A stretch of DNA of 64,000 nucleotides from an uncultured virus (IMG/VR IMGVR_UViG_3300028800_000070) (taxonomy: Duplodnaviria > Heunggongvirae > Uroviricota > Caudoviricetes). Position numbers and translations under genes: made by a program. The notes under the pieces are model-generated. The model did not search any database and had not been told where the DNA came from. It saw only the letters and a list, made by a program, of their open reading frames with translations. Positions 8,806 to 39,030 of the stretch are shown here, piece by piece. Numbering within the stretch: the stretch's first letter is position 1; each line of letters starts with the position of its first letter. The stretch lies in IMG/VR virus record IMGVR_UViG_3300028800_000070; one strand, 5' to 3'.

Positions 8806-8850
8806 AAAAATGGAACACTCCAAATGGATATGTTCCTATAAAGAATTATA
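8806..8850 (-). promoter_or_regulatory. -10 box plus ACAUA-hairpin/U-tract leader (copy 1, divergent)
   Basis: TATAAT tctttata GGAACATATCCATTTGGAGTGTTCC ATTTTT ATG. Confidence 0.6.
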
Positions 8851-8924
8851 TCACAAGGGTTTGAGATAGTTAGGAGTTTTTTGATGGCATGGAACACAAA
8901 ATAATTACAAGTTAATTGTATCAT

Positions 8925-11219
8925 TTATGGTGTCCATTGTCCACCTGAGTATTGATAAGAAGCAGGCGCACCAACTATAGCTCCTGTTGATCCTCCCTGC
9001 TGTTGAGAGGCTTGAGGAATCGAAACAGAACCATTCCCTACCTGAAGAGAGGTTCCCTGATTTCCATTAGGGCCAGGAGGCATAGTAGAAGTAGCTTGTT
9101 GAGGGGAAGGTAAAGATTGTTGTGGCAATCCTTGTACCTTTTGACTAAGTTGTTGATTATATGCAGCTATAATTTGTTGTGCCGCATTATTGAGTTTTGC
9201 AGCAGCATTTGATGGAGAACCTGAATTTATTAAATCTAATTTTAGACCTGGGTAAGCTGCATCTATATCGTTAAAATATCCAGAAAGTTTTGCATAATTA
9301 TTACTTGAAGCGCCTTGCATAGTTTGTACTCCATATCCTCCAATTTCAGGAAGAGCATCTAAAAGATTCGGCTCATTCCAGTTAATCCCCGCAAAACCTT
9401 TTCCTCCCTCATTGAGTAAGGTTAATGCATCATTAATTTTTGGCAAAACCTTTTGGATAGTTCCTGTTGCATCATTAATTGGTTTAGAAGATTCAAGAGC
9501 CTGATCGTTAATTTGTAGTAGTGAATTTACTTGCCCTGCAATGGCAGCATTACCAGGATTATCTTTTATAATATTTTCTAATTGGCTTTTGTAATAATCA
9601 TGCGCTGCCTGACTAATTGCTACAGGTTGATTATTAACATCTTTAGTTGTATATGGATCTACGGAAGACCATTTTCCGTTTACCTGTTGAATAGATGCGG
9701 GATCTGTTTCTAAGTCTTGCGCTTTTACATTGCTCTGAGATATACTAGAGCCATGAGCACCAGTTTGAGTACCATCTTGGCTAGTCATGTCACCTTTCTT
9801 ATTTACGGTCTCCCCTCCTGGTTCGCTGCCTGTGGAATTTTGTCCCTGTGCAAGCGCATTAGCCGTAAGAGTCGTAGCACCAACTCCAATTAAACTTCCT
9901 GCGGTTGCTTTTGGATGTGCAGCAACACCTCCTAATATTCTTTTTACAAGTCCTGGTGGTTTTGGTTTATTCTGTTCTGCAATGGCCGCATTTGTTTCGT
10001 CTCCCATTTGTTGTGAAGCAGCTTTTGCCACATAGGGTTGCGCTTCAATCATTGCACTTTGTCTATCTAATGCATCTCCAATATCAGGATGCATTGATTT
10101 TAATGCACTGCTGGCCGTACGTCTCATTGTGAGAGCTGCCGTTTCTTCAGGTGTCGGGGTAGCATTATTATCAATCTTCTTATAAGCAGATTGAAGATAA
10201 CTATCCAAGTTTTTAATATATGTTTGCAATTGTGTATCAGATATATTATCTGGAGAAACTACATTTTTATTGCCAGCATTTATTTGATTATTTAAACTGG
10301 TAATAAGATTATCTGTAGCGTCCTGTGCGGTTTTTCCTTCCCCCGGTTTAATAGCTGCCTTTTGCATAGCAAGCGCATTATTATCTATAAGATTTTGTTT
10401 TGACATTGATTGAGGATCCGTAGCGAGAGTATTATTTATTCTTTGTGATTCTTCGGTTAATTGAAGCGGTAAATTTGCCTGTACTTCACGAGGATTATTT
10501 CCTCCAACATAATTATCTAATACCCCTTGAGCTTTATTTTGATCTTCTAAATAATAAGGGTTTTTCCTTGCTTGATCCGAGAAGTCTAACCATACAGGAT
10601 TACCACCTGTTACGGGATGAGTCCCCGTTCTATCTGTTACCTTTACAGGTTGATCCCCAACTTTTGGGAAAGGTTTTTCTATAGCCTGCTGAGTTGCAGA
10701 AGTTTGAGGGAAGGCTTCTTCTAAAGGATTAAGAGGTGTTGATTGTGGAAATGTTTTTGAAATTGTATCTTCAGGGGGAACATAAACTCCCCTTCCACTT
10801 GTAATTGGTTTCGCTTTAACTTCTGCGGTAGTCCTAGGTATCTCTGGTAATTTACCTGAGAATTTATATTGTCCTCCGTTTGCTTCTTGAGGAGGAGGTA
10901 AAGGTGCTTCAGGGGTTTTAGCTATATTTCCATGTCCATCATAGATAGGAGGAGGTTCTCCTGAAGTATCGGCATCTCCTACCATTCCCATACCTGCCAC
11001 GATTTGTGCATTTGGGCCTTCTTTTCCTGAAAGTTCATTTATAACGGGAGTATTTGCTCCTTTACTAAGAGTATTTTGTATTCCTTGAGGAGAAAGATTT
11101 TGTGCAACCTTACTTACATCCTGACCTACATCATTCGCCACTGTTCCCACTCCTTTTTCAACATCCTGAACATAAGGATTTGCTTGTGCCGCTTGAATAA
11201 AGCTATCAATTAGACCCAT
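8925..11219 (-). CDS. putative internal virion / DNA ejection protein
   Basis: 764 aa, Q/N/A/G-rich, located after the tail genes as in podoviruses. Confidence 0.55.
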   Translation of the reverse strand: MGLIDSFIQAAQANPYVQDVEKGVGTVANDVGQDVSKVAQNLSPQGIQNTLSKGANTPVINELSGKEGPNAQIVAGMGMVGDADTSGEPPPIYDGHGNIAKTPEAPLPPPQEANGGQYKFSGKLPEIPRTTAEVKAKPITSGRGVYVPPEDTISKTFPQSTPLNPLEEAFPQTSATQQAIEKPFPKVGDQPVKVTDRTGTHPVTGGNPVWLDFSDQARKNPYYLEDQNKAQGVLDNYVGGNNPREVQANLPLQLTEESQRINNTLATDPQSMSKQNLIDNNALAMQKAAIKPGEGKTAQDATDNLITSLNNQINAGNKNVVSPDNISDTQLQTYIKNLDSYLQSAYKKIDNNATPTPEETAALTMRRTASSALKSMHPDIGDALDRQSAMIEAQPYVAKAASQQMGDETNAAIAEQNKPKPPGLVKRILGGVAAHPKATAGSLIGVGATTLTANALAQGQNSTGSEPGGETVNKKGDMTSQDGTQTGAHGSSISQSNVKAQDLETDPASIQQVNGKWSSVDPYTTKDVNNQPVAISQAAHDYYKSQLENIIKDNPGNAAIAGQVNSLLQINDQALESSKPINDATGTIQKVLPKINDALTLLNEGGKGFAGINWNEPNLLDALPEIGGYGVQTMQGASSNNYAKLSGYFNDIDAAYPGLKLDLINSGSPSNAAAKLNNAAQQIIAAYNQQLSQKVQGLPQQSLPSPQQATSTMPPGPNGNQGTSLQVGNGSVSIPQASQQQGGSTGAIVGAPASYQYSGGQWTP

Positions 11220-11757: not shown

Positions 11758-12619
11758 AGCTCAGGTTCGCCCCACTTGGTAAGGTATTGGAATTGGAAGC
11801 CAATTCAGTAGCGGGAGAGCCAACGGTGGTTTGATAAAGTTGTTGTGTTGGATTAAGTGTGTGATATTGATTTCCAATTTGTGATTCTGTAATACCTGCC
11901 TGATTTGTTGATAAGGTAGCTTGATATTGCTCTTCGGCTTGTGCCAATGCAGTCGCTTGAGACATTTCTGTTGCGCTAAGCTGTACTCCGCTCTGCATTT
12001 TTGTAATTAAGCCTTGAAGCGTGGCGGCTTGTGCTGCGTTCCAACCTTGACCCTCCGTTGCCTGATTCTGTTGGGTAAGCGTTGCATTTTCTTGTGCAGG
12101 GATAAGGTTCTGAGCATTTTGTTGAATACCGGCATTAACAAAGTTAGAAGCGAGTCCGGCCGCGGTATTGGCGTTTGCTGTAGCCGCATTTGCCTGTGGG
12201 GTAAGATAGGCTGTCTCATTAGCTATCCCATTATTTACACTGGTATTATTGATATCATATCCTCGCGCTCCGGTATAATTATCAGGAGTGGCGTTCGTTA
12301 CTTTATTCGTTAGATTAGTCGCTTCCGTTTGAAGAGCAGGGACATTATACATTTGGTTCCCCGTTTGGTAGAGAGAAGTGACGGTAGGATTACTATTAAT
12401 AACATTCTGAAGAGGTTGGACCGCCTGTGAATTTTGTCCTTGTGCAGTATTGAAATTACCTGTTACATCAGCGCTTGACGTATTTCCTGCGGCAGTTGGA
12501 TCATACGATGAGATGGCATTATTGCCTGTATTTGTTGCAGTAGACGCTTCATTGTTTGCTGCTGATTCATCAAGTGAATCATACCTATACTTAAGTCTAT
12601 CAAATTTAAAGTTACGCAT
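11747..12619 (-). CDS. putative ejection protein, homolog of 58057..58812
   Basis: A/T/N/Q-rich; shared VP.LQ, GW...A..LQ.L...SGV.L motifs; start 12619 MRNFKFDRLKYRY. Confidence 0.6.
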   Translation of the reverse strand: MRNFKFDRLKYRYDSLDESAANNEASTATNTGNNAISSYDPTAAGNTSSADVTGNFNTAQGQNSQAVQPLQNVINSNPTVTSLYQTGNQMYNVPALQTEATNLTNKVTNATPDNYTGARGYDINNTSVNNGIANETAYLTPQANAATANANTAAGLASNFVNAGIQQNAQNLIPAQENATLTQQNQATEGQGWNAAQAATLQGLITKMQSGVQLSATEMSQATALAQAEEQYQATLSTNQAGITESQIGNQYHTLNPTQQLYQTTVGSPATELASNSNTLPSGANLSYAA

Positions 12620-12666
12620 AAAAAAAGACACAAGTCAGGGACTATGTGTCTGGGATTATTATAGCA
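12620..12666 (-). promoter_or_regulatory. -10 box plus ACAUA-hairpin/U-tract leader (copy 2)
   Basis: TGcTATAAT aatccc AGACACATAGTCCCTGACTTGTGTCT TTTTTT ATG. Confidence 0.7.
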
Positions 12667-12677
12667 TCTTCTCATAA

Positions 12678-16705: not shown

Positions 16706-16708
16706 AGA

Positions 16709-17701: not shown

Positions 17702-17702
17702 A

Positions 17703-18041
17703 TTATTTCTTTCCCTTAACTTTTCTCAATATATCTAATTCTCTTTTTAAAATCTGTTTATCATCTCGCAATTCTTTCAGTTCCTCCTGTTGCTGTTGTT
17801 CAATCAACTCAAGTATCTGATCCATTCTCTCTTCGGACGCTGTGCTTTGTAGATTTTGTCCTACAATAATCACTGAAAGAAGAACAAATTGACAAAATTC
17901 TTCAACAAACCAATTAACAATCCCAATGCCTCCTGGCTGTAATGCTGCCGGAATACCGATAAAAGCAATAAGAGCAAATAAATAAGCGCACCACATTGAG
18001 CCTACCCATGAGGTTAATTTTAATGCTATCCATTTATTCAT
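17703..18041 (-). CDS. DUF1003-like membrane protein, homolog of 59662..60000
   Basis: LTSWVGSMW, two TM segments, IIVGQN then coil. Confidence 0.6.
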   Translation of the reverse strand: MNKWIALKLTSWVGSMWCAYLFALIAFIGIPAALQPGGIGIVNWFVEEFCQFVLLSVIIVGQNLQSTASEERMDQILELIEQQQQEELKELRDDKQILKRELDILRKVKGKK

Positions 18042-18066
18042 AATCGATGATACCCTTTATGGGTAT

Positions 18067-18114
18067 AAAAAAAGCTACCAGGAAGGTAGCTATGTGCTTT
18101 ATTGTATTATAACA
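18067..18114 (-). promoter_or_regulatory. -10 box plus ACAUA-hairpin/U-tract leader (copy 3)
   Basis: TGtTATAAT acaata AAGCACATAGCTACCTTCCTGGTAGC TTTTTTT ATA; the ATG is 25 nt further on. Confidence 0.7.
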
Positions 18115-18174
18115 CGAATTTATTGGACTCCATCATACTGTAAAGCATAATCTATTAAATTACCCATATATCTA

Positions 18175-18957: not shown

Positions 18958-18964
18958 ATACCTA

Positions 18965-20101: not shown

Positions 20102-20103
20102 AA

Positions 20104-21291: not shown

Positions 21292-21292
21292 A

Positions 21293-21586: not shown

Positions 21587-21612
21587 AAAGAAATTATATC
21601 ACAAAGAGGAGA

Positions 21613-22104
21613 CTATTCATCCCACGAGGCACTTGCATAAAATACGTCAGTTCCCTGAGCATACAGATAAGATAAGAAGATATTGTAAAGTGTTGTTGGT
21701 GCAATCGTCAATTCTCCACCAGGAACTGCAACCCAACGATAGCCTGCACGTTCATTGAAACCTACTGAGAGAAGAACTGAATTTGACACAAGTGATCCCG
21801 CGACGGTTGAAACGGTATAACAGGTTGCACCAGCGGCCACAGCATTCAATCCAACAAGAGGGGCAGAAGTAATCGTATTTGTCCATGTACCTTTAGTTGT
21901 TTGACGCTGCCATTGTACCTGGTAGTTATTATCCGCGGCTGCTCCACCCGGTGAGATTTCCCACTCATAGAGCTTAATGTCTTTAACCGTTGCACCTTGA
22001 GCTACCTGGATAATACCTGCCGCAGCGGTTGTAGAAGATGCTGCACCGGCTGAACCTGCACCGGTATACTTAGCAAAACGTGGAAGTAATCTTGTAAATT
22101 TCAT
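21613..22104 (-). CDS. putative structural protein with RLLPRF leader, close homolog of 52965..53498
   Basis: Very similar to the homolog from AKYTG onward. Confidence 0.7.
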   Translation of the reverse strand: MKFTRLLPRFAKYTGAGSAGAASSTTAAAGIIQVAQGATVKDIKLYEWEISPGGAAADNNYQVQWQRQTTKGTWTNTITSAPLVGLNAVAAGATCYTVSTVAGSLVSNSVLLSVGFNERAGYRWVAVPGGELTIAPTTLYNIFLSYLYAQGTDVFYASASWDE

Positions 22105-22147
22105 ATAAAAAGCTCCCCTTTGGGAGCTATGTGCTGTAGATATTATA
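22105..22147 (-). promoter_or_regulatory. -10 box plus ACAUA-hairpin/U-tract leader (copy 4)
   Basis: TATAAT atctac AGCACATAGCTCCCAAAGGGGAGCT TTTT AT ATG. Confidence 0.75.
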
Positions 22148-22150
22148 TAA

Positions 22151-22681
22151 CTAAACGAGAAGATATGTCAACCAGCCACCTACATTTGTAGCACCTGAAA
22201 GATTAAGAACAAGCGCGTTTCCCGAGGATGTTTGGAAATTACCAACAGGAGCAAAAGGAATCTGTACACCTGAATTAGAGACAAAGTTCATCGTTCCTGT
22301 TATCCCACTTCCTCCCGCGCCATCAGTAAATTTAACATTAACTGAACCCGATGCTACAATTGCTCCTGATAATACCCGTATTCTCTTTCCTCCTGTTGCT
22401 GAAATAATCGTATTATCTCCATTTGATGCTGCCGCGACTGGAGTAAAAAGAGGGGTAAGAGGAGTAATTCCGTTATAGATAGTCGATGTTTCCTCAGAGC
22501 CTCCCGTTATCGGATTGCCGCTTCCATCAACACTAGTAACAACTGCCGCTTCAAGAGACCCTACAGTAAGTCCTGATACTCCCATTCCTAATTGAGTAAC
22601 ACTATCGAGGACTAAGATTGTCCAATGCCTATTATCATCAGGCGGCCCATTTCGATTGTAGCGTGGTAAAAGTCTGTCCAT
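22151..22681 (-). CDS. putative structural protein with RLLPRY leader, homolog of 54209..54682
   Basis: AASNGDNT.I...KFTDGA...LVLNLSGA..VGG shared; leaderless start 22681. Confidence 0.7.
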   Translation of the reverse strand: MDRLLPRYNRNGPPDDNRHWTILVLDSVTQLGMGVSGLTVGSLEAAVVTSVDGSGNPITGGSEETSTIYNGITPLTPLFTPVAAASNGDNTIISATGGKRIRVLSGAIVASGSVNVKFTDGAGGSGITGTMNFVSNSGVQIPFAPVGNFQTSSGNALVLNLSGATNVGGWLTYLLV

Positions 22682-22693
22682 AAACATATTATA

Positions 22694-23320
22694 TTATTCT
22701 TCTTTATCTAATGCTAGCTGTCTTTCGCGGTTGGTAATACGGTCTTCTCTAAGATCAAGCTTCTTCTTTCGTTCCCCATCAATCGCAGCTGATCTTTCAA
22801 TAAGCGATTCTCTCTCGGTTAGTTCTTTTTCTTTCTGACTAAATCCTTCAATAACTTTTAGCTTTTTATCAAGATTTCCTTGCTCTGCTACCGCGTCAAG
22901 CTTCTTTTGTTCCCATATATCTTTCTCTTTTTGTATTTCGATAAGGATATTCTTATTTTCTTCTAATTCCCTTGTCTTAATCCGTATCTCAATATTGGCT
23001 TGGTCAATATATTTTCTTTCCTGTATAATTGCGCTTTCCTTAAGCGTTAGTTCATGCTCAGTTTGTGATAAATCCTGTTGTCGCTTAAGCATCTTTTGCT
23101 CAACTGTTTGTAAATAACGGATTTTAGCATCATAGGAAGTAAGACTATGGATATATGATTCAAGCAGTTTATAAAGATTTTCATATGCCTGCTGAATCGA
23201 TGTCAGATTCTTTGCTCTTGCAGCAATTTCTTCCTCGTCATCACCAGGCACAATGGTAGGGAATTTGGAGAAGTCAAGAGATTTAGGAGTATTTTGGAAT
23301 TTAGCAAGGTCAATATTCAT
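22694..23320 (-). CDS. coiled-coil protein
   Basis: Long E/K/R heptad region. Confidence 0.6.
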   Translation of the reverse strand: MNIDLAKFQNTPKSLDFSKFPTIVPGDDEEEIAARAKNLTSIQQAYENLYKLLESYIHSLTSYDAKIRYLQTVEQKMLKRQQDLSQTEHELTLKESAIIQERKYIDQANIEIRIKTRELEENKNILIEIQKEKDIWEQKKLDAVAEQGNLDKKLKVIEGFSQKEKELTERESLIERSAAIDGERKKKLDLREDRITNRERQLALDKEE

Positions 23321-23601
23321 AGTTTTACAAAGATTTTATCAAGCGCATTTTGGTATCTTGTTTCGTAGTGCAATCTAATTGGCCCGTCTTTCGTTATTTC
23401 AACCGTATTCTCCAAAGCAATCTTTTGTGCTAAATGCTTAGCCAAATGCCGTGCTATATATGCAGGAAAAGTAACGAGACCTCTTGAAGGCATTGTATAT
23501 TGTATTTGCATATTCTCATCATTCGTAAGAGGATAAGTAAAATCGCTTTTTAATGGATTATAGATAAGCGTTGGGGTTTCGTCTCGCGTAGTGGGAATCA
23601 T
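23317..23601 (-). CDS. hypothetical; resembles the N-terminal domain of 24400..25083
   Basis: YNPL..DF.Y versus YNPL..PF.F followed by an amphipathic helix. Confidence 0.55.
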   Translation of the reverse strand: MIPTTRDETPTLIYNPLKSDFTYPLTNDENMQIQYTMPSRGLVTFPAYIARHLAKHLAQKIALENTVEITKDGPIRLHYETRYQNALDKIFVKL

Positions 23602-23620
23602 GCTAAAGCATTCCTTTCAT

Positions 23621-24103
23621 TCATACTTTGTTTCTAAATACAGGAAGGTTTCTGTATAAGAGACATGTTTTTTCTATTCCATCTTTCGGATCAACATCTT
23701 TTGAATACCCATATTGAGCATCATTCTTCGCGAGGTTTGGATCAAGTTTCTTCTCAAGTATTTTAAAATCCTGGCTTGAGACATAGAAGGCTTTTGTTTG
23801 TTCATTCCAAATCTTATCAAGATCCTCATGTATTTCGCGTGAAGTTCTTAAATGAAAATAAGTTGGTTCAGGTTTATCGGGATGTTGACCGGCTTGTATC
23901 TCAAGCTGGAAATATAGGTCTTCAATCAGTCCCTCTAATCGTTCAATTTGTTGACACGACAGCATGAGGATAGTTAGCATTTGTTTTCTTGACCATCCTG
24001 CTTTATCAATAAGATCAACGTATTGTTCCCATTGACTTGGTGGAATAAAGACATCAAATGCTTGACTGACTTTCTGTCTGATTGGTTCTTTTATATGTGC
24101 CAT
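23621..24103 (-). CDS. hypothetical protein
   Basis: 160-aa ORF in the late cluster. Confidence 0.55.
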   Translation of the reverse strand: MAHIKEPIRQKVSQAFDVFIPPSQWEQYVDLIDKAGWSRKQMLTILMLSCQQIERLEGLIEDLYFQLEIQAGQHPDKPEPTYFHLRTSREIHEDLDKIWNEQTKAFYVSSQDFKILEKKLDPNLAKNDAQYGYSKDVDPKDGIEKTCLLYRNLPVFRNKV

Positions 24104-24106
24104 AAA

Positions 24107-24256
24107 TTAAGCTCTAAAGTAAAAGCGTTTTCCCCATCCGATGAAAACAAAATCAGCTAACAATGCAATAATTAATCCTATAAAGGGAGTATCGCCAAGA
24201 GCCAATGCCGTATGTCCTGAATTAAAAAATGTAATCGCCCAAATAACAGTAAACAT
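24107..24256 (-). CDS. small hydrophobic protein
   Basis: Hand-translated 49 aa MFTVIWAITFF...; SD-like GGGGAG upstream. Confidence 0.45.
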   Translation of the reverse strand: MFTVIWAITFFNSGHTALALGDTPFIGLIIALLADFVFIGWGKRFYFRA

Positions 24257-24257
24257 A

Positions 24258-24398
24258 TTAAATCACTCCCCTTCTATGTAAAAGATAAAGTATTATTGCA
24301 ATAATTAATAATGTCAATGGATAAATATTCCCAAGAATAAATGTCCCTACAACCCCGAAGAGAATTAAAAGAATAACGATAAATAAAATCAAATCCAT
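24258..24398 (-). CDS. small two-TM membrane protein
   Basis: Hand-translated 46 aa MDLILFIVILLILFGVVG...LLHRRGVI. Confidence 0.5.
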   Translation of the reverse strand: MDLILFIVILLILFGVVGTFILGNIYPLTLLIIAIILYLLHRRGVI

Positions 24399-24399
24399 A

Positions 24400-25083
24400 T
24401 TATGCTGAGACCTCCTTTACGAGATCCTCTTTCTTAATATGCACTTTTTCTGTACGGATTTGTGTAAGAGGTTTTTCTTCAGGCTGCTCTCCCATTGCAA
24501 GCTTCTCGATAGCTGCGGTATCTACTGGAGGGGTAATAGGAGCCGCTTTCTGGTGCTCAGAAGCTACTCTATCCATAAAACCTGCCAGAACCCTATCGTG
24601 AACAGGTGCGAAGTCTTGTGGTAAGTCTCGCTGTATCTGTTCAGGCTCTGGCTCTTCAAGGCCAAACTCTTCAACCAGGCCAATAATAACAATATTCGCC
24701 ACTTGATTGACCAACTCAGGATCATTGACTTTTGGTACTCTATCCCATATTTGCACATTCTCCTCATAATGATCCATGAACTGTTGTCCAAATTGCTTTT
24801 TCCTCAACGTCATTAGCTCATTACCTTTTGCGGCAATTTGTTCATTAATCATCTCATTACTGATTGCCCGAAGAAAGGCACGCATTAGGAACTTTTCAAA
24901 ATTCTTGTAGGATTTAGCAGGAACGGAATGCCAATAGCGGTTATACATAAAGCGGAAGGGACGATCTAAGGGATTGTAGACTTGCCAGAGATCATGGGAA
25001 GAACGCTCGACTTCACGACGGGCTATTTCCATCTCCATAGCTACTCGTTGCTTTAATTCTTCTCCTGAGAGTGGGACTGGCAT
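24400..25083 (-). CDS. hypothetical protein
   Basis: 227-aa ORF. Confidence 0.6.
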   Translation of the reverse strand: MPVPLSGEELKQRVAMEMEIARREVERSSHDLWQVYNPLDRPFRFMYNRYWHSVPAKSYKNFEKFLMRAFLRAISNEMINEQIAAKGNELMTLRKKQFGQQFMDHYEENVQIWDRVPKVNDPELVNQVANIVIIGLVEEFGLEEPEPEQIQRDLPQDFAPVHDRVLAGFMDRVASEHQKAAPITPPVDTAAIEKLAMGEQPEEKPLTQIRTEKVHIKKEDLVKEVSA

Positions 25084-25084
25084 A

Positions 25085-25495
25085 TTAGTTAATAGGCTTT
25101 CTTATTCCTGAAATTTTACCAATATTATTTACTTCACTTACTTTAGGCTGCTCAGTAGCAATTGGCTGTAATTTGAGCATAATAGGACCGAGCATATCGA
25201 AATCCTGTTGTTTTCCCGTAATCTGCGTAAGCATGTTATAGAAACCAAGGATATCTTTTTTCGATAATACTACTTTTTCTTCTTTTGCTACGAACTTTTC
25301 AACTTGGTCAGTAAAAGGTTTAAATACTAGATAATCACCATATTTTTGATTAATGTTTTTCGTAAGTTCAGCTAAAACGGTCAATTGTTTAACGGTAAAA
25401 TGAAGCGTATGGAGTGTTTCAAGATCTCTCTCAAAAATTTTCTTCTGCTCTTCTTGTTCAGGTGTTAATGGTCTGTTCGGATCGTTTGGATTCAT
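25085..25495 (-). CDS. hypothetical protein
   Basis: Leaderless TGgTATAAT-6nt-ATG. Confidence 0.6.
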   Translation of the reverse strand: MNPNDPNRPLTPEQEEQKKIFERDLETLHTLHFTVKQLTVLAELTKNINQKYGDYLVFKPFTDQVEKFVAKEEKVVLSKKDILGFYNMLTQITGKQQDFDMLGPIMLKLQPIATEQPKVSEVNNIGKISGIRKPIN

Positions 25496-25528
25496 AATAG
25501 TATTATACCATATGAGCAGAAAATGAAG

Positions 25529-25807
25529 TTATTGTGCCGTGCCAGCACGGGAGAAATCAGCAAGTACTGTTAAATCAATCCCCGTGGTTGAAGGAGTAAT
25601 AGTAAAACCTGTTTGAATTGTCCAATATTCATAATATTGTCCTGCTGCTGGATTTGTGATTACCCCTATTACCGGAGAGCCTGTTGTTCCCGTTTCATCA
25701 GATAAAGTAAGCGTACCGGTAAATCCGGTATTTACCTGAATTCTCACCTTTTTTGCTGCCATTGGGATAGCATTTAAAGCTGTTGCGGAAGTGAAATGTA
25801 CATACAT
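25529..25807 (-). CDS. small beta-rich structural protein
   Basis: Thr/Gly-rich, downstream of the capsid genes. Confidence 0.5.
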   Translation of the reverse strand: MYVHFTSATALNAIPMAAKKVRIQVNTGFTGTLTLSDETGTTGSPVIGVITNPAAGQYYEYWTIQTGFTITPSTTGIDLTVLADFSRAGTAQ

Positions 25808-25810
25808 AGA

Positions 25811-26338
25811 TTAAGCCGTACGTGTAAAGACGTATGCGGTTGCAGAAGAAAACATTAGAGTAAATCTACCAACACCGGTTATACCCGATGCAACAGTTAA
25901 TTGACCAAATGAAGCTGCTGTCGTATTTGCAGCATCTGATTTAATACCATTTGTTGCAACTGCCATAGTAACCGTATTTGCTCCCGCTGTATTATCAATA
26001 TAGAGATCAAAGACAGTCCCTTGCGTTGCTCCCAGTGCTGCTCCCAAAAGTGTACCTGTCGGAAGTGTCATGGTAACAGGTGATGCAGACGTTGAAGTGA
26101 TATATCCTGCCGCTACCTGGGCTACCGTAAGAGTTCCGGTAGCGTTCATCGCAACAGGAGTAAACGCTAACTGTCCTGTATTAAGAATAGGATTTTGGAT
26201 AATTTGCCCTGTAGGAAGAATTAACCCTGACAATCCTGACATATCCAAAGTTTGTCCAAATAAACCAGGAATCAACTTCCGTATATCAAAGTTTCCTACG
26301 TATCTTGGTAATAATCGATTGAATTTAAAGTTATTCAT
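25811..26338 (-). CDS. head decoration/fibre-like protein with RLLPRY leader
   Basis: ITSTSASPVTMTLPTG motif; MNNFKFNRLLPRY start. Confidence 0.6.
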   Translation of the reverse strand: MNNFKFNRLLPRYVGNFDIRKLIPGLFGQTLDMSGLSGLILPTGQIIQNPILNTGQLAFTPVAMNATGTLTVAQVAAGYITSTSASPVTMTLPTGTLLGAALGATQGTVFDLYIDNTAGANTVTMAVATNGIKSDAANTTAASFGQLTVASGITGVGRFTLMFSSATAYVFTRTA

Positions 26339-26359
26339 AGAGCTAATCTCAATAGAGGC

Positions 26360-27280
26360 TTAGTCTATTGAGGAGAATCCTGCAATCCAGTGACCTGATG
26401 CTGCTGGATTAATTGCTACTCCAACCTGTGTACCTGCTGATGTAAACGGATGCAATTGAACTGCTCCTGCTGTACCTGATCCTGTTGAGACTGGAGAACC
26501 TGTTAAGATAGACGTAGCATCTGAGAGCATAGCCGTCATACCGTGAGTCTGTACCCAAGCATATTGTTGTGATGCTTCACTGGTTGTAGTAGCCGCTGTA
26601 CTAGCCGTTGCCGCAAAGAGAGCAAATCCTGTTGGCATAGCGGTCACAGTGGTAGCTATCGATTGAATGACTCCTGACCATGGATTACGTGTCATACTTA
26701 CTTTAGTAGAAGTTGTCCATGCTGTGATTAATGGTCTGTCAAGATAAAGAGTGAGATTCTGTCCCGATGTACCTGTATTGTGACCATTAATCGTATATGC
26801 CCCTCCACCATCCGGAGTTGTGTAAACACTTACTTGACCGTTGACATAATCGCCAAGATTAACAGTTGTTGTTCCGTTAGTAACTGTTGCAGTTTGCTGT
26901 GCGCCTGCTCCTGCAATCGCCGTTGCAAGAACTGCCATATTAGTAAACTGAGAACTATATGCTGCACCTTGTAAAAGATTAGCTTTAACGAGTGCTGTTG
27001 CTCCTACTTTGGCGAGTCTGAACCATTGACCATTAAAGCCTGCTTGATATTGTCCTACCATTGAATCAAGGATTTCAGTACCATTTGAATTAGCATACAA
27101 ATCCATATATGCAATTTCAGGATCTGATGTCAAAGAAGCGTAGCGCGCATTCAAAGCTGAGAAATCAAGTTCTTCAAGTTTTCTATTAGTAATCCAAGCC
27201 AGTTGTTCTTTCATTGTTTGAACCGTTGGATGTACTTGTTTAAAATTGTCTAATGTATGTGTTTGTTCTTTTAAATTCAT
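26360..27280 (-). CDS. putative capsid decoration/cement protein
   Basis: Directly after the MCP; YAWVQTHG; A/T/G-rich. Confidence 0.55.
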   Translation of the reverse strand: MNLKEQTHTLDNFKQVHPTVQTMKEQLAWITNRKLEELDFSALNARYASLTSDPEIAYMDLYANSNGTEILDSMVGQYQAGFNGQWFRLAKVGATALVKANLLQGAAYSSQFTNMAVLATAIAGAGAQQTATVTNGTTTVNLGDYVNGQVSVYTTPDGGGAYTINGHNTGTSGQNLTLYLDRPLITAWTTSTKVSMTRNPWSGVIQSIATTVTAMPTGFALFAATASTAATTTSEASQQYAWVQTHGMTAMLSDATSILTGSPVSTGSGTAGAVQLHPFTSAGTQVGVAINPAASGHWIAGFSSID

Positions 27281-27281
27281 A

Positions 27282-28430
27282 TTAAACTCCTGTAATTGTA
27301 TATCCTACTGATTGACGTCGGAATGATTGTGGAATCATTTGCCCTATGCAATAGAAACGTGCAATTCTTCCTGCTTGATCCGGAATTGACATTGGTTTTT
27401 GATAGAACCATCCATTCCACTCTGAAGGTGCTTCAGTTGCTAATGCTCCTGTTCCTTCATACGCTTCATTTGTACCGAAGTCAACTTTCTCAAGAATTTC
27501 CTCATAATCTTCTGGGACTTCACTTCGGCCTTTCCAGACTAAGTATTTCTCATTAACAAACCAAAGCAAACCTGTTGTTGCGAAGTAATCACGGATAATG
27601 TATGTATCTCGGTATGAGAGTGCATTAAATCCTGCTGCTGATTTCAATTCTCCCACATTACGAGAAGCATATTCATCTCTGGTACGCATTTTGTCATAAC
27701 CAACGTCTCGATATGACTGTCTAACAAAAGGTGTTAAAAGCTGTTCATAGTCAGTAAAGATAGCTGATGGACACCAGCCGACATTTGGTGACTCTTCTGC
27801 TGCTCCCGGAGCAAGCTGTGAGTCATATTGTACTCCCATTGTTGCCAAGGTCAATTTACCTGAAGCGTAAGATGTTCTAACAGATTCGAGTGAGGTATAA
27901 GTAGTTCGTGAAAGTCCCCCAATAGTCGTTGCATTTGTACCATCATCAATAATTGCTGAAAATCCAAGAGGCTGATTAGCCAATCCTAACCCATAAATAG
28001 CTGAACCAAGCGTATTAATTGCTTGTGCTGCTGCTTTCTCATATTTAAAGGTATCAAGATTAATTATCCCAAGTGATCCTACATTAGCGAAGGATTCAAG
28101 CATGATTGAAACGACTGGTTGTGTGTAAGCTGTGTGGGTGTAAACTCCTGAAACAGAAGTAGAAACGGCTGAAGAGTTGAGCGTTTCCAGTGAAGTAAAG
28201 AATTGTCCTTGGGTATCTTGAGCGATATCATAAACAACGTATTCAGCTTTTCCTTGAAATTCACTACCTTGAGAAACGAAACGGGAATAAAGAGCAGGGA
28301 AATTAAGAACTTGGTCTACAACTTTTGTATAGATTTTCTGAAGACCTAACGGATCAACACGTCCTGGAACCGGAATACCGTCATAACGGGGATTAAGTCT
28401 ATTAAATTTTAATACAAGTGTATTTTGCAT
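27282..28430 (-). CDS. major capsid protein (HK97-fold expected)
   Basis: Position after portal and scaffold; KVVDQV, GGLSRTTY, AGFNALSY; 382 aa. Confidence 0.75.
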   Translation of the reverse strand: MQNTLVLKFNRLNPRYDGIPVPGRVDPLGLQKIYTKVVDQVLNFPALYSRFVSQGSEFQGKAEYVVYDIAQDTQGQFFTSLETLNSSAVSTSVSGVYTHTAYTQPVVSIMLESFANVGSLGIINLDTFKYEKAAAQAINTLGSAIYGLGLANQPLGFSAIIDDGTNATTIGGLSRTTYTSLESVRTSYASGKLTLATMGVQYDSQLAPGAAEESPNVGWCPSAIFTDYEQLLTPFVRQSYRDVGYDKMRTRDEYASRNVGELKSAAGFNALSYRDTYIIRDYFATTGLLWFVNEKYLVWKGRSEVPEDYEEILEKVDFGTNEAYEGTGALATEAPSEWNGWFYQKPMSIPDQAGRIARFYCIGQMIPQSFRRQSVGYTITGV

Positions 28431-28499
28431 AAAAAAAGCTCCCCTTCGGGAGCTATGTGCTGTAGATGTATTATATATTGCCTATCTAATTCTTGTCAA
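28431..28499 (-). promoter_or_regulatory. promoter plus ACAUA-hairpin/U-tract leader (copy 5)
   Basis: TTGACA-18nt-TATAAT acatctac AGCACATAGCTCCCGAAGGGGAGCT TTTTTT ATG. Confidence 0.8.
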
Positions 28500-28505
28500 C
28501 AGGTA

Positions 28506-29555
28506 TTATTTCGCTTTGAACCCTACTTCACGAGCTATTTGTTTGATTGATTTATTATGATCCCTAGCATAATTATATTTCATAATATTTGCAGGAACTT
28601 GTGGCGTGTTCTTTACTCCCGCAATAGGAGCGTTCTTCCCTGGAACTTCTGTTGGCTTTTCAGGATTAACTTTCTGTGTTGGTAGATAATGCAAGAAGAA
28701 TATCTTATTGAAAGACATGACAGGTTGTAGGTTTGCTTTTACTCTCTCTGTATTGAGTTTTATTCCGAAAGCTATAACCTTCTGTATCTCTTTCGCTGCT
28801 TCATCAGTAGTATTTGGATTATTAACTTCATTAATGTCATTGGGAGTTGGCAACAGCTTTGCGGCGTTTATTTCCTTAATATCACTAAACACTTGATTCG
28901 TATAATCGGCGAGCTTCTTATCATTCTCTGCCTTAGCGTCCGGTGGTTTGGTTTCGACAACAGGTTCTTTGGGTTGAGCTTTCATACGTTGCTCCCATTT
29001 AGCATCTGAGATACGCATTTGCTCTTCTGCAATTTCTTTCCAATCCTTCGGTACTCTATTCTCTTTTTCCCATAATGGAATAAGCTCATCAAGTTCTTTT
29101 TGTTTCTCTAATACGGATTTATCCTTATCTAATATTTCGGCAACTTTCTCCTCGAATGCTTTTCGTGTTTCTGTTCCCACTCGTGATGCCGCTTCTTCTG
29201 CTGCTTTTCGCGCAACTTCTTCGATGTTTGAAGTTTGAGGTACTTCTTCTTTCTTTCCTTCTTCCGGAAGTGTTTGTTTGACTTCCACTTTTTCAGTTGA
29301 TACAACCTCTCCTTTTTTTTCCTCTTCTGTCTCTTTTGGTTCTTCCTTTTCCTTAGCTTCCATATTAGCTAGATATTTCGCTCTTCGTTCCTTAATACTT
29401 TTCTCTTTTACATCAGAGACTATCTGACGCATGGAGCGTCCACCATCTCTTCGATAAACAAACTTGTCTTGAGCTGCTGGCGATGCTTCAGTTTTAGTTT
29501 CTTCCGCGGGTGCATCTTCGTAGCGTGGTAATAATCGTGTGAAATATGTTTTCAT
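28506..29555 (-). CDS. capsid scaffolding protein
   Basis: E/K-rich helical protein between portal and MCP; MKTYFTRLLPRY start. Confidence 0.65.
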   Translation of the reverse strand: MKTYFTRLLPRYEDAPAEETKTEASPAAQDKFVYRRDGGRSMRQIVSDVKEKSIKERRAKYLANMEAKEKEEPKETEEEKKGEVVSTEKVEVKQTLPEEGKKEEVPQTSNIEEVARKAAEEAASRVGTETRKAFEEKVAEILDKDKSVLEKQKELDELIPLWEKENRVPKDWKEIAEEQMRISDAKWEQRMKAQPKEPVVETKPPDAKAENDKKLADYTNQVFSDIKEINAAKLLPTPNDINEVNNPNTTDEAAKEIQKVIAFGIKLNTERVKANLQPVMSFNKIFFLHYLPTQKVNPEKPTEVPGKNAPIAGVKNTPQVPANIMKYNYARDHNKSIKQIAREVGFKAK

Positions 29556-29582
29556 ATAACTATTATAGCATTAGCATAGGAA

Positions 29583-31712
29583 CTACATTATACGTGGCGA
29601 TGCAACAGGTGGTTGCGTAGGCGGACTAATCGGAACTCCGCTTGTATTCCCCGCGCTTGGATTCTGTGGCATGGCAGGAGCTGGTGCTTGAGGAGCAGGT
29701 TGAGGCATAGGTTGTTGTGGGGCTGGTTGAGCAGGAGCAGGCGCACCTTGTCCTGCAACTGAAGGAATAAGAGCGCTTTGCTGAGGCAATGGCATTTGTG
29801 CTTTCATGAGCGCTTGCGCTAATGCTTCTGAGGTATCCAGTCCTTTACTCACTTTTTGTAAATAAGCGATAGGATCAGCTTTCGCAAGAATGAGCTTCTC
29901 TGTGAGTCCGTCAGGGTCAGGAAGACCCATCATGACATAAAAACTATGTGGATCTACCATTTGCATCTTCGCCATATCCATAGCGTTATTCTGCGCTTTA
30001 AGTTTATCTGTTCCGCTTGCTTTAATCTTAATCAACATTCCTTCATCCCACCCGTTTTGATGTAAGCGTTGATAGACCGCTAGCCCAGCATTACCTAACA
30101 ACCATTTAAAATGCTTAGGTGTATAGCGAAGTATCCCCCACTGTGCATCCCATTCAGCCATCCATAACGCTGCATCATTAATCGTATCTTCTACTAGATC
30201 ATCGGCACTTGTGAAATCACTTTCACGGCCTATTTGGGTATTAGTAGCAGGCGTATTATGTTGTATCTCCCCTCGTACAGCGTTTGAATGAGCGACAGCA
30301 TACATCCTATCTCGTGTCTTATCTTGATATTCATATTGATCTCGGGTTGGACGCTCAGGGGCGACAAACTCGTGCACCTCTCGTGGCGATCCTTCCACAG
30401 AAACATCCTCATTTGGTGCGTTCATATCAAGCTCTTCCACATCCGAAGGAGTTAATGCTGCTTTAGCCCAAATATGATGTCCTCTATTCTTGATTGTTTC
30501 AGCTATCTGTTTCCCTCCATCATCTACCGTTACTTGATTGCGGATATTCTGTTCAATACGCGATGTTTCATCATAGGGCTGTATTCCCCATTGATCATAG
30601 CCCATAAAATAGAACGGTTTTCGTGGAAACTTAAAATAGTTTTTGTATACTTTCTCCTGTTTTACATGCGATGGCACTTGGCCTGTCATAAGAATAGCTT
30701 GAAGCTCTTGTCCATTTAATCCTCTCTTCTCTTGCCCCTGTTTCCCCTGGTCATAGACGAAGTATCTATCCTCTCCTTCATAATCAAAGTTAGGATTCTT
30801 CATCTTGTGTAAAATAACCTTCTTATATTTCCACAACACACCATGAACTAATTCAACTTTCGTATCAGATTGACGCTTTAAGTAGTGAAACCATACTTCA
30901 CGATAACGTACCTTTGTAGCAAGAGCTGAGTAGGTTTCCATACGTCCTGGCATTAGGCCGTCTGATTCAAGCTGTGTGATAAGTTCTTCTTTCTTTTGTG
31001 GAAACTTTAAAAAGAGTTCGTGGATTGATTCATCAGGAATAATATGGGAGACAAACTGCATCTCGTCAGCATTCTTAGTTGAACAGGTATGATCAACCTC
31101 AATAAGATCTGGATGTATTGCCCCAAACTTACGATCATCAGTTGCCGGATCCCACCATGTTTTAATTACTCCGGTAAAATAGACAGGGTGATGTTTAAAC
31201 GCTAGTCCTAATACAAATCTATTTTCACGGTCTTTTACTTGTGAGTTAATGGCTTTACTGTATTGTTCAGCGAAGAGTGTTTCATCATCTGATTCGTCAT
31301 TCTCCGGCTCTACAATAAAATCAGGAAGGCGTGCCATAGCGAGCGGTTTTATTGTTCCTTCTATTTCATAGAGCACATTATCCTGAAATTTATCTTCCCA
31401 ATCTTTATAGCCATGTTCCTTTTCACGATCTAAATTCTGTCTTCCCCATAGGTAAACTTCATTTTTCTTGCGCCTCTTAAAGAGATCATATTTATCTTCA
31501 TAGAAAGTGTTGTAGTCTTTTACCCAATCATCAACGATATCACACAACTCGTCATCAGGGATATCAAGTTGAAGCGGATCTATAGGGGAGAATGAGTTAA
31601 TGCCCTCTTCATCAACATGCTTGGCAGGATCTTGATCGTCATAGCTTGCCTGCATCTTACGGCCTTCCATATTGACATCATAGCGTGGTAATAATCTGTG
31701 AAATCTATTCAT
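29583..31712 (-). CDS. portal protein (P22-like)
   Basis: 709 aa after TerL; TGVIKTWWD; Pro/Gln-rich C-tail; MNRFHRLLPRY start. Confidence 0.75.
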   Translation of the reverse strand: MNRFHRLLPRYDVNMEGRKMQASYDDQDPAKHVDEEGINSFSPIDPLQLDIPDDELCDIVDDWVKDYNTFYEDKYDLFKRRKKNEVYLWGRQNLDREKEHGYKDWEDKFQDNVLYEIEGTIKPLAMARLPDFIVEPENDESDDETLFAEQYSKAINSQVKDRENRFVLGLAFKHHPVYFTGVIKTWWDPATDDRKFGAIHPDLIEVDHTCSTKNADEMQFVSHIIPDESIHELFLKFPQKKEELITQLESDGLMPGRMETYSALATKVRYREVWFHYLKRQSDTKVELVHGVLWKYKKVILHKMKNPNFDYEGEDRYFVYDQGKQGQEKRGLNGQELQAILMTGQVPSHVKQEKVYKNYFKFPRKPFYFMGYDQWGIQPYDETSRIEQNIRNQVTVDDGGKQIAETIKNRGHHIWAKAALTPSDVEELDMNAPNEDVSVEGSPREVHEFVAPERPTRDQYEYQDKTRDRMYAVAHSNAVRGEIQHNTPATNTQIGRESDFTSADDLVEDTINDAALWMAEWDAQWGILRYTPKHFKWLLGNAGLAVYQRLHQNGWDEGMLIKIKASGTDKLKAQNNAMDMAKMQMVDPHSFYVMMGLPDPDGLTEKLILAKADPIAYLQKVSKGLDTSEALAQALMKAQMPLPQQSALIPSVAGQGAPAPAQPAPQQPMPQPAPQAPAPAMPQNPSAGNTSGVPISPPTQPPVASPRIM

Positions 31713-31761
31713 AAAAAAAGCACAAAGCCGTTAAGCTATGTGCTGTAGCAAAATTATATCA
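31713..31761 (-). promoter_or_regulatory. -10 box plus ACAUA-hairpin/U-tract leader (copy 6)
   Basis: TGaTATAAT tttgctac AGCACATAGCTTAACGGCTTTGTGCT TTTTTT ATG. Confidence 0.75.
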
Positions 31762-39011: not shown

Positions 39012-39030
39012 AATTAGTTCGATAAGTTGA

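What the first reader, a model, noticed from the sequence alone, without database searches (positions are those of the whole stretch)
8806..31761. Six ultra-short late-gene leaders: -10 box, ACAUA hairpin, U-tract, then AUG with no Shine-Dalgarno
Seen on the minus strand before starts 31712, 28430, 22104, 18041, 12619 and 8805: TATAAT, 6-8 nt, a conserved (A/G)(G/A)CACAUAG-like head with invariant ACAUA, a hairpin, 5-7 U, then AUG almost immediately (18041 is the exception). Two folds occur. In 31713, 12620 and 8806 the head pairs into a long stem whose sequence co-varies (AGCACA/UGUGCU, AGACACA/UGUGUCU, GGAACA/UGUUCC). In 28431, 22105 and 18067 the head is free and the stem starts at AGCU. 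A terminator-shaped element directly behind its own promoter implies conditional read-through. Four of the six precede proteins with the RLLPRY-type leader. Inference: a late-gene switch (antiterminator or RNA-binding-protein site), an SD-independent translation element, or a source of about 30-nt RNAs. The Zn-ribbon genes at 31759 and 21293 are candidate partners.
Basis: partly seen in the sequence, partly recalled or inferred. Interest (0 to 1): 0.82.

Follow-up and report, generated by a model that had tools for sequence, protein, structure and literature searches.

The report
Switchable terminator leaders before phage genes
Six structural genes of an uncultured phage each begin with a strong promoter followed at once by a transcription stop signal whose base can instead fold into a tiny conserved hairpin, which looks like a very compact, previously undescribed on/off switch for late genes.

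Summary
The six sites are real and non-random. Each is an exact TATAAT, a predicted start 0-2 nt before a 3-bp mini-hairpin with loop ACAUA, a canonical intrinsic terminator, 5-7 U, then AUG. The new point: the "conserved head" is the 5' half of a mini-hairpin whose 3' arm is the base of the terminator stem, so the two folds exclude each other. Its stem covaries inside the window (AGC/GCU, GAC/GUC, GGA/UCC) and across 22 related phage contigs (45 of 64 sense-strand terminators; shuffles at most 23). Loops are uniform within a phage and differ between phages. 400 kb of a Patescibacteria-type genome bin and 150 other genomes of that phylum lack the element. Best reading (0.45): a default-off attenuator opened by a loop-specific, probably phage-encoded RNA-binding factor that holds the mini-hairpin, as in RAT/BglG or ANTAR P2 switches, but far smaller and fused to promoter and start codon. 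No factor was identified, no RNA data exist, and a constitutive stabiliser/translation-leader role is not excluded. "No Shine-Dalgarno" holds for three of six sites; "invariant ACAUA" holds only in this phage. The same phage also uses many leaderless genes (-10, 6 nt, ATG).

The parts
31710..31758 (-). Element before the 709-aa portal-like gene: -10 TATAAT 31758-31753 (TGa before it); predicted +1 at 31746; mini-hairpin AGC 31744-31742 / loop ACAUA 31741-31737 / GCU 31736-31734; long-stem terminator 31744-31719; U-run 31719-31713; ATG 31712-31710
   Evidence: model R1 E 0.024
28428..28499 (-). Element before the major capsid gene: -35 TTGACA from 28499, -10 28475-28470; predicted +1 at 28463; mini-hairpin AGC 28461-28459 / ACAUA 28458-28454 / GCU 28453-28451; terminator stem-loop 28454-28437; U-run 28437-28431; ATG 28430-28428; GGAG-like stretch inside the 3' arm
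   Evidence: (E 1.3e-5)
22102..22171 (-). Element before a 163-aa protein: -35 TTGACA from 22171, -10 22147-22142; predicted +1 at 22135 (first base of the mini-hairpin); AGC 22135-22133 / ACAUA 22132-22128 / GCU 22127-22125; terminator 22128-22111; U-run 22111-22107; ATG 22104-22102
   Evidence: (E 3.4e-4)
18039..18111 (-). Element before a 112-aa protein: -10 18111-18106 (TGt); predicted +1 at 18099; AGC 18098-18096 / ACAUA 18095-18091 / GCU 18090-18088; terminator 18091-18073; U-run 18073-18067; second hairpin 18066-18050; ATG 18041-18039
   Evidence: E 3.8e-6
12617..12663 (-). Element before a 290-aa protein: -10 12663-12658 (TGc); predicted +1 at 12651; GAC 12650-12648 / ACAUA 12647-12643 / GUC 12642-12640; long-stem terminator 12651-12626; U-run 12626-12620; ATG 12619-12617
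   Evidence: E 0.27
8803..8850 (-). Element before a 176-aa protein: -10 8850-8845 (TGa); predicted +1 at 8838/8837; GGA 8836-8834 / ACAUA 8833-8829 / UCC 8828-8826; long-stem terminator 8836-8812; U-run 8810-8806; ATG 8805-8803
   Evidence: not recovered by model R1 at E<=1
31759..32214 (-). Candidate only: 151-aa protein with two Zn-ribbon-like modules (four CxxC), leaderless-type start (TATAAT + 6 nt + ATG 32214), directly upstream of the first element; conserved at this position in relatives
   Evidence: 17 of 22 loci, 24-36% identity; pLDDT 88; no fold or family match
35180..35554 (-). Candidate only: small protein (likely start at Met 35515) with N-terminal C4 Zn ribbon and a conserved basic region, in the conserved block chaperonin - this gene - small terminase
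   Evidence: 11 loci; pLDDT 74; no family or fold match

Best explanation
Each site is a 37-40-nt (64 nt at 18041) composite leader of a structural gene: a host sigma-70-type promoter, then RNA that can take two exclusive folds. By default it forms a canonical intrinsic terminator (GC-rich stem, 5-7 U), so RNA polymerase stops about 29-34 nt after starting, just before the AUG, and transcripts coming from the gene upstream stop there too. A trans-acting factor that reads the A/U-rich pentaloop (ACAUA here), most likely a phage-encoded RNA-binding protein made earlier, clamps the 3-4-bp mini-hairpin at the 5' end. That takes away the bottom 3-4 pairs of the terminator stem, leaves a 3-4-bp stub separated from the U-tract, and lets polymerase run into the gene. 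In half of the sites it would also help free a GGAG-like stretch and the AUG region. Shown: the sequence anatomy, the two competing folds, covariation, lineage specificity, loop uniformity per phage. Inferred: transcription start, termination, existence and origin of the factor, the timing role.
For: Anatomy. Start site calibrated internally: 11 genes of the same strand have a -10 box exactly 6 nt before ATG, which puts +1 at the 7th base after TATAAT; at five of six elements that base is A, and the mini-hairpin starts 0-2 nt later at all six. Competing folds: mini-hairpin alone -0.3 to -0.8 kcal/mol, terminator -11 to -13; forcing the mini-hairpin costs about 7-9 kcal/mol and leaves a 3-4-bp stem cut off from the U-run. 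Covariation: within the window AGC/GCU x4, GAC/GUC, GGA/UCC with constant loop. In window plus 22 related loci, 45 of 64 dereplicated sense-strand compact terminators have a >=3-bp (29 a >=4-bp) mini-hairpin ending on the stem base; flank shuffles mean 12.6, max 23 of 1000; flank swaps mean 18.5, max 28; antisense terminators 4 of 14. On the unselected 64-row alignment 65.9% of cells pair against 44.6% shuffled, covariation 0.502 against 0.192 (0 of 500), slid registers 0.13-0.19. Every late terminator has its own unit, including second units of tandem terminators that lack their own -10 (L007-9, L015, L016, L021). The capsid gene, the most needed late product, lies behind one or two such terminators in 22 of 22 loci. 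Loops are identical in 47% of within-phage pairs against 10% between phages (0 of 5000 label shuffles), as expected for a co-evolving reader. Lineage specificity: exact TATAAT within 30 nt upstream of a terminator 39 of 64 against 3 of 141 in 400 kb of a Patescibacteria-type bin; ATG within 3 nt of the U-run 26 of 64 against 1 of 141; mini-hairpins there at background (28 of 109); model R1 gives 37 hits, all on the sense strand (17 not in the seed), in 315 kb of phage DNA, 3 weak hits in the 400 kb, and 1 of 151 genomes of that phylum, on a phage-like contig.
Against: No transcript data: start, stop and read-through are all inferred (one search lists no RNA holder). No factor found: 104 window ORFs have no CAT, ANTAR, Q, NusG-like or Com family match; the two conserved Zn-ribbon candidates have no informative fold match. 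The mini-hairpin is only 3-4 bp. 19 of 64 terminators fail the strict test (several are long-stem sites where it lies inside the stem), and in the complete 39.8-kb relative 2 of 5 element leaders show no clear mini-hairpin. Many structural genes next to the gated ones have ungated leaderless promoters, so this is not a general late switch. Related sequences are not independent, which inflates shuffle-based significance. The 'host' control is a metagenome bin whose link to the phage rests on binning.
Confidence: 0.45

Rival explanations
1. No switch: the hairpin is a constitutive, multi-purpose leader. It ends the upstream transcription unit and protects its 3' end; as a 5'-proximal stem-loop it protects the downstream mRNA from 5'-end-dependent decay; the U-run is an SD-independent, A/U-rich ribosome landing site. 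Polymerase that has just left the adjacent promoter reads through often enough.
For: The predicted 5' end lies 0-2 nt before the mini-hairpin or long stem. ATG abuts the U-run in 26 of 64 lineage terminators against 1 of 141 in the bin, which points to a translation role. 3 of 6 sites have no SD-like stretch and the phage plainly tolerates SD-less starts (11 leaderless genes). A paper's discussion (passage read, PMC12641178) lists RNase J, PNPase and RNase III among factors retained in Patescibacteria, so 5' hairpins could matter. Ungated leaderless promoters sit among the same structural genes.
Against: It gives no reason for X to covary with the first bases of the stem in the short-stem class, where X would be single-stranded at equilibrium, nor for loop uniformity per phage. 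Stems of 6-8 GC-rich pairs followed directly by 5-9 U are textbook strong terminators; placing one or two of them between the capsid gene and its promoter in 22 of 22 loci would waste most transcripts unless they are overcome.
Confidence: 0.25
2. Processive or polymerase-directed antitermination: the conserved +1 to +13 segment is a loading site (DNA or nascent RNA, like qut, put or nut) for a factor that makes polymerase terminator-resistant, or a phage protein modifies polymerase globally (like P23-45 gp39 or Xp10 P7) and the mini-hairpin serves something else.
For: Strong constitutive promoter plus immediate terminator is the lambda PR'-tR' logic (recalled). Phage proteins that bind host polymerase and suppress intrinsic termination are known (abstracts seen in listing: PMC3351154, PMC6624301). 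The element sits in the initially transcribed region at 5 of the 6 spacings expected for a start-linked site.
Against: A processive system needs one loading site per operon, yet here each terminator carries its own unit, including tandem second units with no promoter. The stem sequence varies between sites of one phage while pairing is kept, which fits an RNA hairpin and not a DNA site. A -10-like TAnnnT pause element follows the start at only 1 of 6 sites (31712, read). No Q-family or NusG-like protein found.
Confidence: 0.12
3. The promoters mainly make abundant 29-34-nt RNAs (5' single-stranded head plus terminator hairpin plus U-tail, the shape of a minimal base-pairing sRNA or a protein decoy).
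For: Predicted products from +1 to the end of the U-run are 29-34 nt (coordinates); consensus-strength promoters.
Against: Only the 5-nt loop is constant between sites of one phage, too short for a seed. Position directly before the start codons of orthologous structural genes is conserved across relatives. The window holds only one exact complement of CACAUAG on sense RNA (10029-10035).
Confidence: 0.05
4. Ordinary terminators of the upstream genes with chance -10-like words nearby.
For: All six lie in intergenic gaps after co-directional genes.
Against: Exact TATAAT within 30 nt upstream in 39 of 64 lineage terminators against 3 of 141 in the control; 7 against 1.23 expected for the motif pair; two perfect 12-of-12 promoters.
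Confidence: 0.03

Closest known systems
RAT / BglG-SacY-LicT (CAT-domain) antitermination
   Same: A protein-stabilised RNA hairpin in the leader partly overlaps the 5' arm of an intrinsic terminator and excludes it (PMC12591593, passages read; PMC3369936, passages read).
   Different: RAT is a ~30-nt imperfect palindrome read in its stem by a CAT dimer. Here the hairpin is 11-13 nt with a conserved loop and a free-varying stem, no CAT/PRD protein is encoded in the window, it occurs 5-6 times per phage genome before structural genes, and it is fused to promoter and start codon. That review contains no occurrence of the word 'phage'.
ANTAR (AmiR/NasR/EutV) leaders
   Same: [quoted passage not shown] Several terminators in one gene cluster each carry the motif.
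   Different: ANTAR needs two hairpins (P1 and P2) with A1 and G4 in both loops. Here there is one hairpin per terminator, a pentaloop with A1 but U (or C) at position 4, and no ANTAR-domain protein.
Lambdoid late switch (PR', tR', Q) and N/boxB
   Same: Constitutive strong late promoter followed closely by a terminator that makes a short RNA until an antiterminator appears; N reads a small pentaloop hairpin (both recalled, not tested).
   Different: Q and N act processively from one site per operon and their sites do not overlap the terminator. Here every terminator has its own overlapping hairpin; no Q-family protein was found; 1 of 6 sites has a -10-like pause word.
Mu Com / mom translational activation
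   Same: A small Zn-finger protein binds a hairpin next to an inhibitory stem that hides the start region (recalled). Here the terminator's 3' arm hides GGAG-like bases at 3 of 6 sites, and conserved Zn-ribbon proteins are the only candidates.
   Different: Com acts on translation only, at a single gene; no Com family match.
Thermus phage P23-45 programme
   Same: Host polymerase throughout, -10-only promoters, leaderless transcripts (recalled) and a phage antiterminator, gp39 (abstract seen, PMC3351154).
   Different: gp39 binds polymerase and needs no RNA element; no terminator-in-leader architecture is known to me there.

Membership tests
Intrinsic (Rho-independent) terminator | GC-rich stem-loop followed directly by a U-run | tested here: met
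   6 of 6 sites: stems of 7-11 pairs, loops 3-5, 5-7 U at 0-1 nt. Activity as a terminator not testable here.
Sigma-70-type promoter | -10 TATAAT with -35 TTGACA at 16-18 nt or TGn extension | tested here: met
   Exact TATAAT 6 of 6; TTGACA at 18 nt 2 of 6; TGn 4 of 6. Start site not testable with these tools.
RAT / CAT-domain antitermination | Antiterminator hairpin overlaps the terminator's 5' arm | tested here: met
RAT / CAT-domain antitermination | About 30-nt imperfect palindrome with internal loops | tested here: not met
   Hairpin is 11-13 nt, 3-4 pairs; definition from PMC12591593
RAT / CAT-domain antitermination | Cognate CAT/PRD protein | tested here: not met
   No such Pfam match in 104 window ORFs; the host genome is unknown
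ANTAR leaders | Two stem-loops P1 and P2 upstream of the terminator | tested here: not met
   One mini-hairpin per terminator; upstream of it lies the promoter
ANTAR leaders | Loop residues A1 and G4 | tested here: not met
   A1 present; position 4 is U in ACAUA and U or C in most relatives; definition from PMC3369936
ANTAR leaders | Distal stem of the last hairpin overlaps the terminator's proximal stem | tested here: met
ANTAR leaders | ANTAR-domain protein | tested here: not met
   None among 104 ORFs
Lambda Q / qut | Q-family protein and a sigma-dependent -10-like pause element after the start | tested here: not met
   No Q family; TAnnnT within the first 15 nt at 1 of 6 sites (read). Definition recalled.
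Lambda N / nut | One boxA-boxB site per operon acting processively | tested here: not met
   One unit per terminator, overlapping it. boxA not searched. Definition recalled.
Any Rfam family | Covariance-model match | tested here: not met
   0 matches at gathering score for the whole window and 0 at E<=1 for 8000-32500

The most novel reading that the evidence does not exclude
A new class of phage regulatory module, so far seen only in one lineage of uncultured phages that bin with Patescibacteria/Saccharibacteria. It is a 'mini-RAT': a 3-4-bp pentaloop hairpin at the very 5' end of the mRNA, read by a phage-specific Zn-ribbon RNA-binding protein of unknown fold (the conserved 151-aa or the ~111-aa protein). 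The protein individually unlocks each terminator placed between a consensus promoter and the start codon, and at the same stroke exposes the start region. Transcription antitermination and SD-poor translation initiation would thus be switched together within 40 nt.
Probability: 0.3. Interest if true: 0.8.

Novelty: new variant of a known kind. Interest (0 to 1): 0.62.

Why it matters
If the reading holds, this is the smallest antiterminator/terminator switch described, and a rare case of passive, site-by-site RNA-binding antitermination used by a phage to gate structural genes. It comes from phages of a bacterial group (Patescibacteria-type hosts, by binning only) whose gene regulation is almost unstudied. 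The module is about 40 nt, self-contained (promoter, switch, terminator, start codon) and comes in phage-specific loop variants, which would make it attractive as a set of orthogonal parts. It also gives a concrete, testable handle for finding a new RNA-binding protein family. The parallel finding that the same phage, and a candidate host bin, use -10 + 6 nt + ATG leaderless starts widely bears on gene calling in such genomes.

Tried and rejected
Expression data: no RNA holder listed for window 22000-31800 (15 DNA runs only); read laying was not used because DNA contigs cannot show RNA ends. Known RNA families: none. Near-identical phage records: none by megablast; the large terminase reaches at most 33% identity to named phages. 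Earlier notes of this scan: nothing. Factor hunt: Pfam on 63 + 41 ORFs and PHROGs on 30 gave no regulator. p151: word-index search found only itself and one 76% relative that a source names 'PIN domain' protein, a weak Mut7-C Zn-ribbon match (E 0.0077), Foldseek best E 0.1, VIA best Z 2.3. p124: Atlas best 0.86, unnamed viral clusters, Foldseek best E 1.8. Anti-start-codon or initiator-anticodon mimicry: the loop holds CAUA, complementary to the UAUG at the start. Rejected because relatives with ACACA, AUUUA or AAUUUA loops keep AUG. Start inside the hairpin so that own transcripts escape termination: rejected, because the predicted +1 lies 0-2 nt before the mini-hairpin and 8-11 nt before short stems. 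Dimeric DNA-binding site: rejected, because the arms differ between sites of one phage and the centre is not palindromic. N4-type DNA hairpin promoter: no polymerase gene seen, and tandem units lack a -10. Polymerase recycling after termination (PMC6978380, listing and abstract only): the promoter lies upstream of the terminator, so recycling would be futile. A wider mini-hairpin search window picked up the terminator itself and was discarded for that purpose. Literature: searches found no description of such an element; subscription journals are largely outside that library.
Full report
THE OBSERVATION. Each site has an exact TATAAT, 6-8 nt, a head ending in ACAUA, a hairpin, 5-7 U, then AUG at 0-2 nt. 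At 18041 the AUG comes 25 nt later, after a second small hairpin. TATAAT-N4-12-ACATA occurs 7 times against 1.23 expected (0 of 100 shuffles reach 7). The seventh hit, at 29567, is something else (see the fourth section). Two promoters match TTGACA-18-TATAAT in 12 of 12 positions and four have a TGn extension. The simple terminator scan finds no other convincing minus-strand terminator in the structural region.

WHAT THE WINDOW IS. It is a phage with no close named relative. It encodes a large terminase at 32242-33783, a capsid protein at 27282-28430, small terminase, a GroEL-like chaperonin, integrase and VRR-NUC. The terminase reaches at most 33% identity to named phages. The capsid protein finds 18 IMG/VR contigs (48-76% identity). 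It also finds 4 contigs in genome bins: a Saccharibacteria bin (77%), a Patescibacteria bin (65%), a Scalindua bin and a Terriglobia bin. The host is therefore only guessed. No whole genome is held. All 15 sequencing runs that hold the DNA are rhizosphere metagenomes and none is RNA.

THE NEW ANATOMY. In the 'free head' sites the head reads AGC-ACAUA-GCU, and GCU is the first three bases of the terminator stem. In the long-stem sites the same unit sits inside the 5' arm: AGC-ACAUA-GCU, GAC-ACAUA-GUC, GGA-ACAUA-UCC. So all six share a 3-bp mini-hairpin with a constant pentaloop and a covarying stem. Its 3' arm is also needed for the base of the terminator. The mini-hairpin alone is worth -0.3 to -0.8 kcal/mol. 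Forcing it costs about 7-9 kcal/mol and leaves a 3-4-bp stub separated from the U-run. [quoted passage not shown]

WHERE TRANSCRIPTS SHOULD START. Eleven genes on the same strand have a -10 box exactly 6 nt before ATG: 58812, 55149, 54682, 52624, 32214, 29555, 25495, 22681, 18957, 7309 and 5625. These are leaderless-type starts. They calibrate +1 as the 7th base after the hexamer. At five of the six elements that base is A, and the mini-hairpin begins 0-2 nt later at all six. Terminated products would be 29-34 nt. The same pattern TGnTATAAT-N6-ATG occurs 6 and 13 times in the two Patescibacteria-type bins, against 0 for the reversed control.

RELATIVES. I collected compact hairpin-plus-T-run sites without regard to any upstream pairing. 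Window plus 22 loci give 92 sites, 75 of them on the coding strand.
- Of 64 dereplicated sense-strand sites, 45 have a >=3-bp and 29 a >=4-bp mini-hairpin (loop 5-7 nt) whose 3' arm starts within 1 nt of the stem base.
- Shuffled flanks give a mean of 12.6 (max 23 of 1000) and 3.5 (max 9). Flanks swapped between sites give 18.5 (max 28) and 6.3 (max 14). Antisense terminators give 4 of 14.
- Several misses are long-stem sites where the unit lies inside the stem.
- On a MAFFT alignment of all 64, with no row selection, the four proposed pairs are 65.9% paired against 44.6% shuffled. Covariation is 0.502 against 0.192 (0 of 500), and slid registers give 0.13-0.19.
- On 20 chosen seeds the three inner pairs hold in 20 of 20 with GC, CG, AU and UG types. 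This set was selected, so it is only illustrative.
- Related sequences are not independent, so these numbers overstate significance somewhat.

LINEAGE SPECIFICITY. Exact TATAAT lies within 30 nt upstream of the terminator in 39 of 64 lineage sites, against 3 of 141 in 400 kb of chromosome-size contigs of the Patescibacteria bin. ATG follows the T-run within 3 nt in 26 of 64 against 1 of 141. Mini-hairpins there are at background level (28 of 109 with >=3 bp, 10 with >=4 bp). A covariance model of the unit (R1) finds 37 matches at E<=1 in 315 kb of phage-lineage DNA. All are on the sense strand: 20 are seeds and 17 are not, and 5 of the window's 6 are recovered with no extra copy. It finds 3 matches with E of 0.49 or worse in the 400 kb. 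Among 151 genomes of that phylum it matches one genome, on the phage-like contig itself (strict filters, so 'not found in those searched').

THREE COMPARATIVE FACTS THAT SPEAK FOR A REGULATED STOP.
- The capsid gene lies behind such a terminator in 22 of 22 loci (21, L013).
- Four lineages (L007-9, L015, L016, L021) have two terminators in tandem there. The second has its own mini-hairpin but no -10, so the unit works as RNA and independently of the promoter.
- Loops are uniform within a phage and differ between phages: ACAUA x6 here; ACACA in L001 and L010/11; AAUUUA in L016; A..UUUC in L015. Identical loops make up 47% of 87 within-phage pairs against 10% of 1188 between-phage pairs (0 of 5000 label shuffles, loops transcribed by hand).

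A complete 39.8-kb relative shows the same two architectures: five element leaders (portal, capsid and three other structural genes) and six leaderless starts. Two of its five elements lack a clear mini-hairpin.

MECHANISM. I commit to a default-off attenuator opened by a loop-specific trans factor, probably phage-encoded (confidence 0.45). The supporting features are one unit per terminator, a sequence-free stem with a sequence-specific loop, phage-specific loops, and absence from the candidate host. Together they fit passive, local antitermination by an RNA-binding protein better than a processive (Q/N-type) or polymerase-directed (gp39/P7-type) system. At 28430, 22104 and 8805 the 3' arm also contains a GGAG-like stretch 8-9 nt before AUG (recalled generic anti-SD), so translation may be unmasked together with transcription. 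The title's 'no Shine-Dalgarno' holds for the other three sites only.

EVIDENCE AGAINST THIS READING.
- No factor was identified.
- The 151-aa double Zn-ribbon protein sits just upstream of the first element, is itself leaderless, and is conserved in place in 17 of 22 loci. The ~111-aa Zn-ribbon/basic protein is conserved in 11 loci. Both are positional candidates only. Their models (pLDDT 88 and 74) match no solved fold.
- Ungated leaderless promoters sit among the gated genes, so this is not 'the' late switch.
- Without RNA ends, a constitutive role as 3'/5' stabiliser plus U-rich translation leader remains a serious rival (0.25).

COMPARISON AND NOVELTY. It works like RAT/BglG and above all like the P2 hairpin of ANTAR leaders, and its logic resembles lambda PR'-tR'. 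It fails the defining features of each family: size and CAT protein for RAT; two hairpins, G4 and the ANTAR domain for ANTAR; the Q protein, pause element and processivity for Q. It matches no Rfam family. Seven literature searches found no description. The 2025 review of RNA-binding antiterminators does not contain the word 'phage'. I file it as a new variant of a known kind. No supplementary files were consulted.

Noticed in passing
window minus strand, starts 58812, 55149, 54682, 52624, 32214, 29555, 25495, 22681, 18957, 7309, 5625 (also 52930 with TATACT and 21586 with GTG): Leaderless-type gene starts: a -10 box (mostly TGnTATAAT) exactly 6 nt before the start codon. Several imply shorter ORFs than the longest frame (32214 not 32235; 22681 not 22687; 7309 not 7342). 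The same pattern is enriched in two Patescibacteria-type bins (6 and 13 hits against 0 for the reversed control).
   Followed up: partly
N-termini of the proteins starting at 31712, 29555, 28430, 26338, 22681, 22104, 12619: Seven virion-region proteins share an N-terminal F-x-R-L-(L/N/K)-(P/Y)-R-(Y/F) motif within the first 9-17 residues. It occurs behind element, leaderless and internal starts alike, so it is a peptide signal (propeptide or capsid-targeting signal?), not part of the RNA element.
   Followed up: no
window 18175-21586 and 50903-52930: Paralogous modules: 97-aa Cys-rich proteins (21293-21586 and 52637-52930) and proteins starting MPNFITTQ (18957 and 51370), each next to 395/414-aa fibre-like genes. 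VRR-NUC also occurs twice (769-1110, 44134-44490). The window may hold more than one related module or a genome larger than the ~40-kb relatives (a source contig of 81.6 kb is on record).
   Followed up: no
window 35676-37770: GroEL-like chaperonin (546 aa, Pfam Cpn60 E 7e-53) preceded by a 112-aa protein. Both are conserved in the 39.8-kb relative; from its position next to the chaperonin the smaller one may be a co-chaperonin, though no family search matched it.
   Followed up: partly
window 37300-48100: Early-looking region packed with small ORFs, many with paired CxxC motifs (e.g. 45968-46090, 38778-39011, 39349-39480, 42656-42802); almost none is shared with the 39.8-kb relative.
   Followed up: partly
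window 18050-18066 (minus strand): Second hairpin AUACCC-AUAAA-GGGUAU between the U-run and the AUG of the 18041 gene, the only element with a long spacer.
   Followed up: no
window 7364-7387 (+ strand): Strong terminator-like hairpin (10 pairs, 7 GC) followed by a T-rich tail on the strand opposite to all neighbouring genes.
   Followed up: no
L007/L008/L009 3560+3602, L015 9914+9961, L016 9925+9971, L021 88+126: Two terminator units in tandem directly before the capsid gene in four related lineages.
   Followed up: partly
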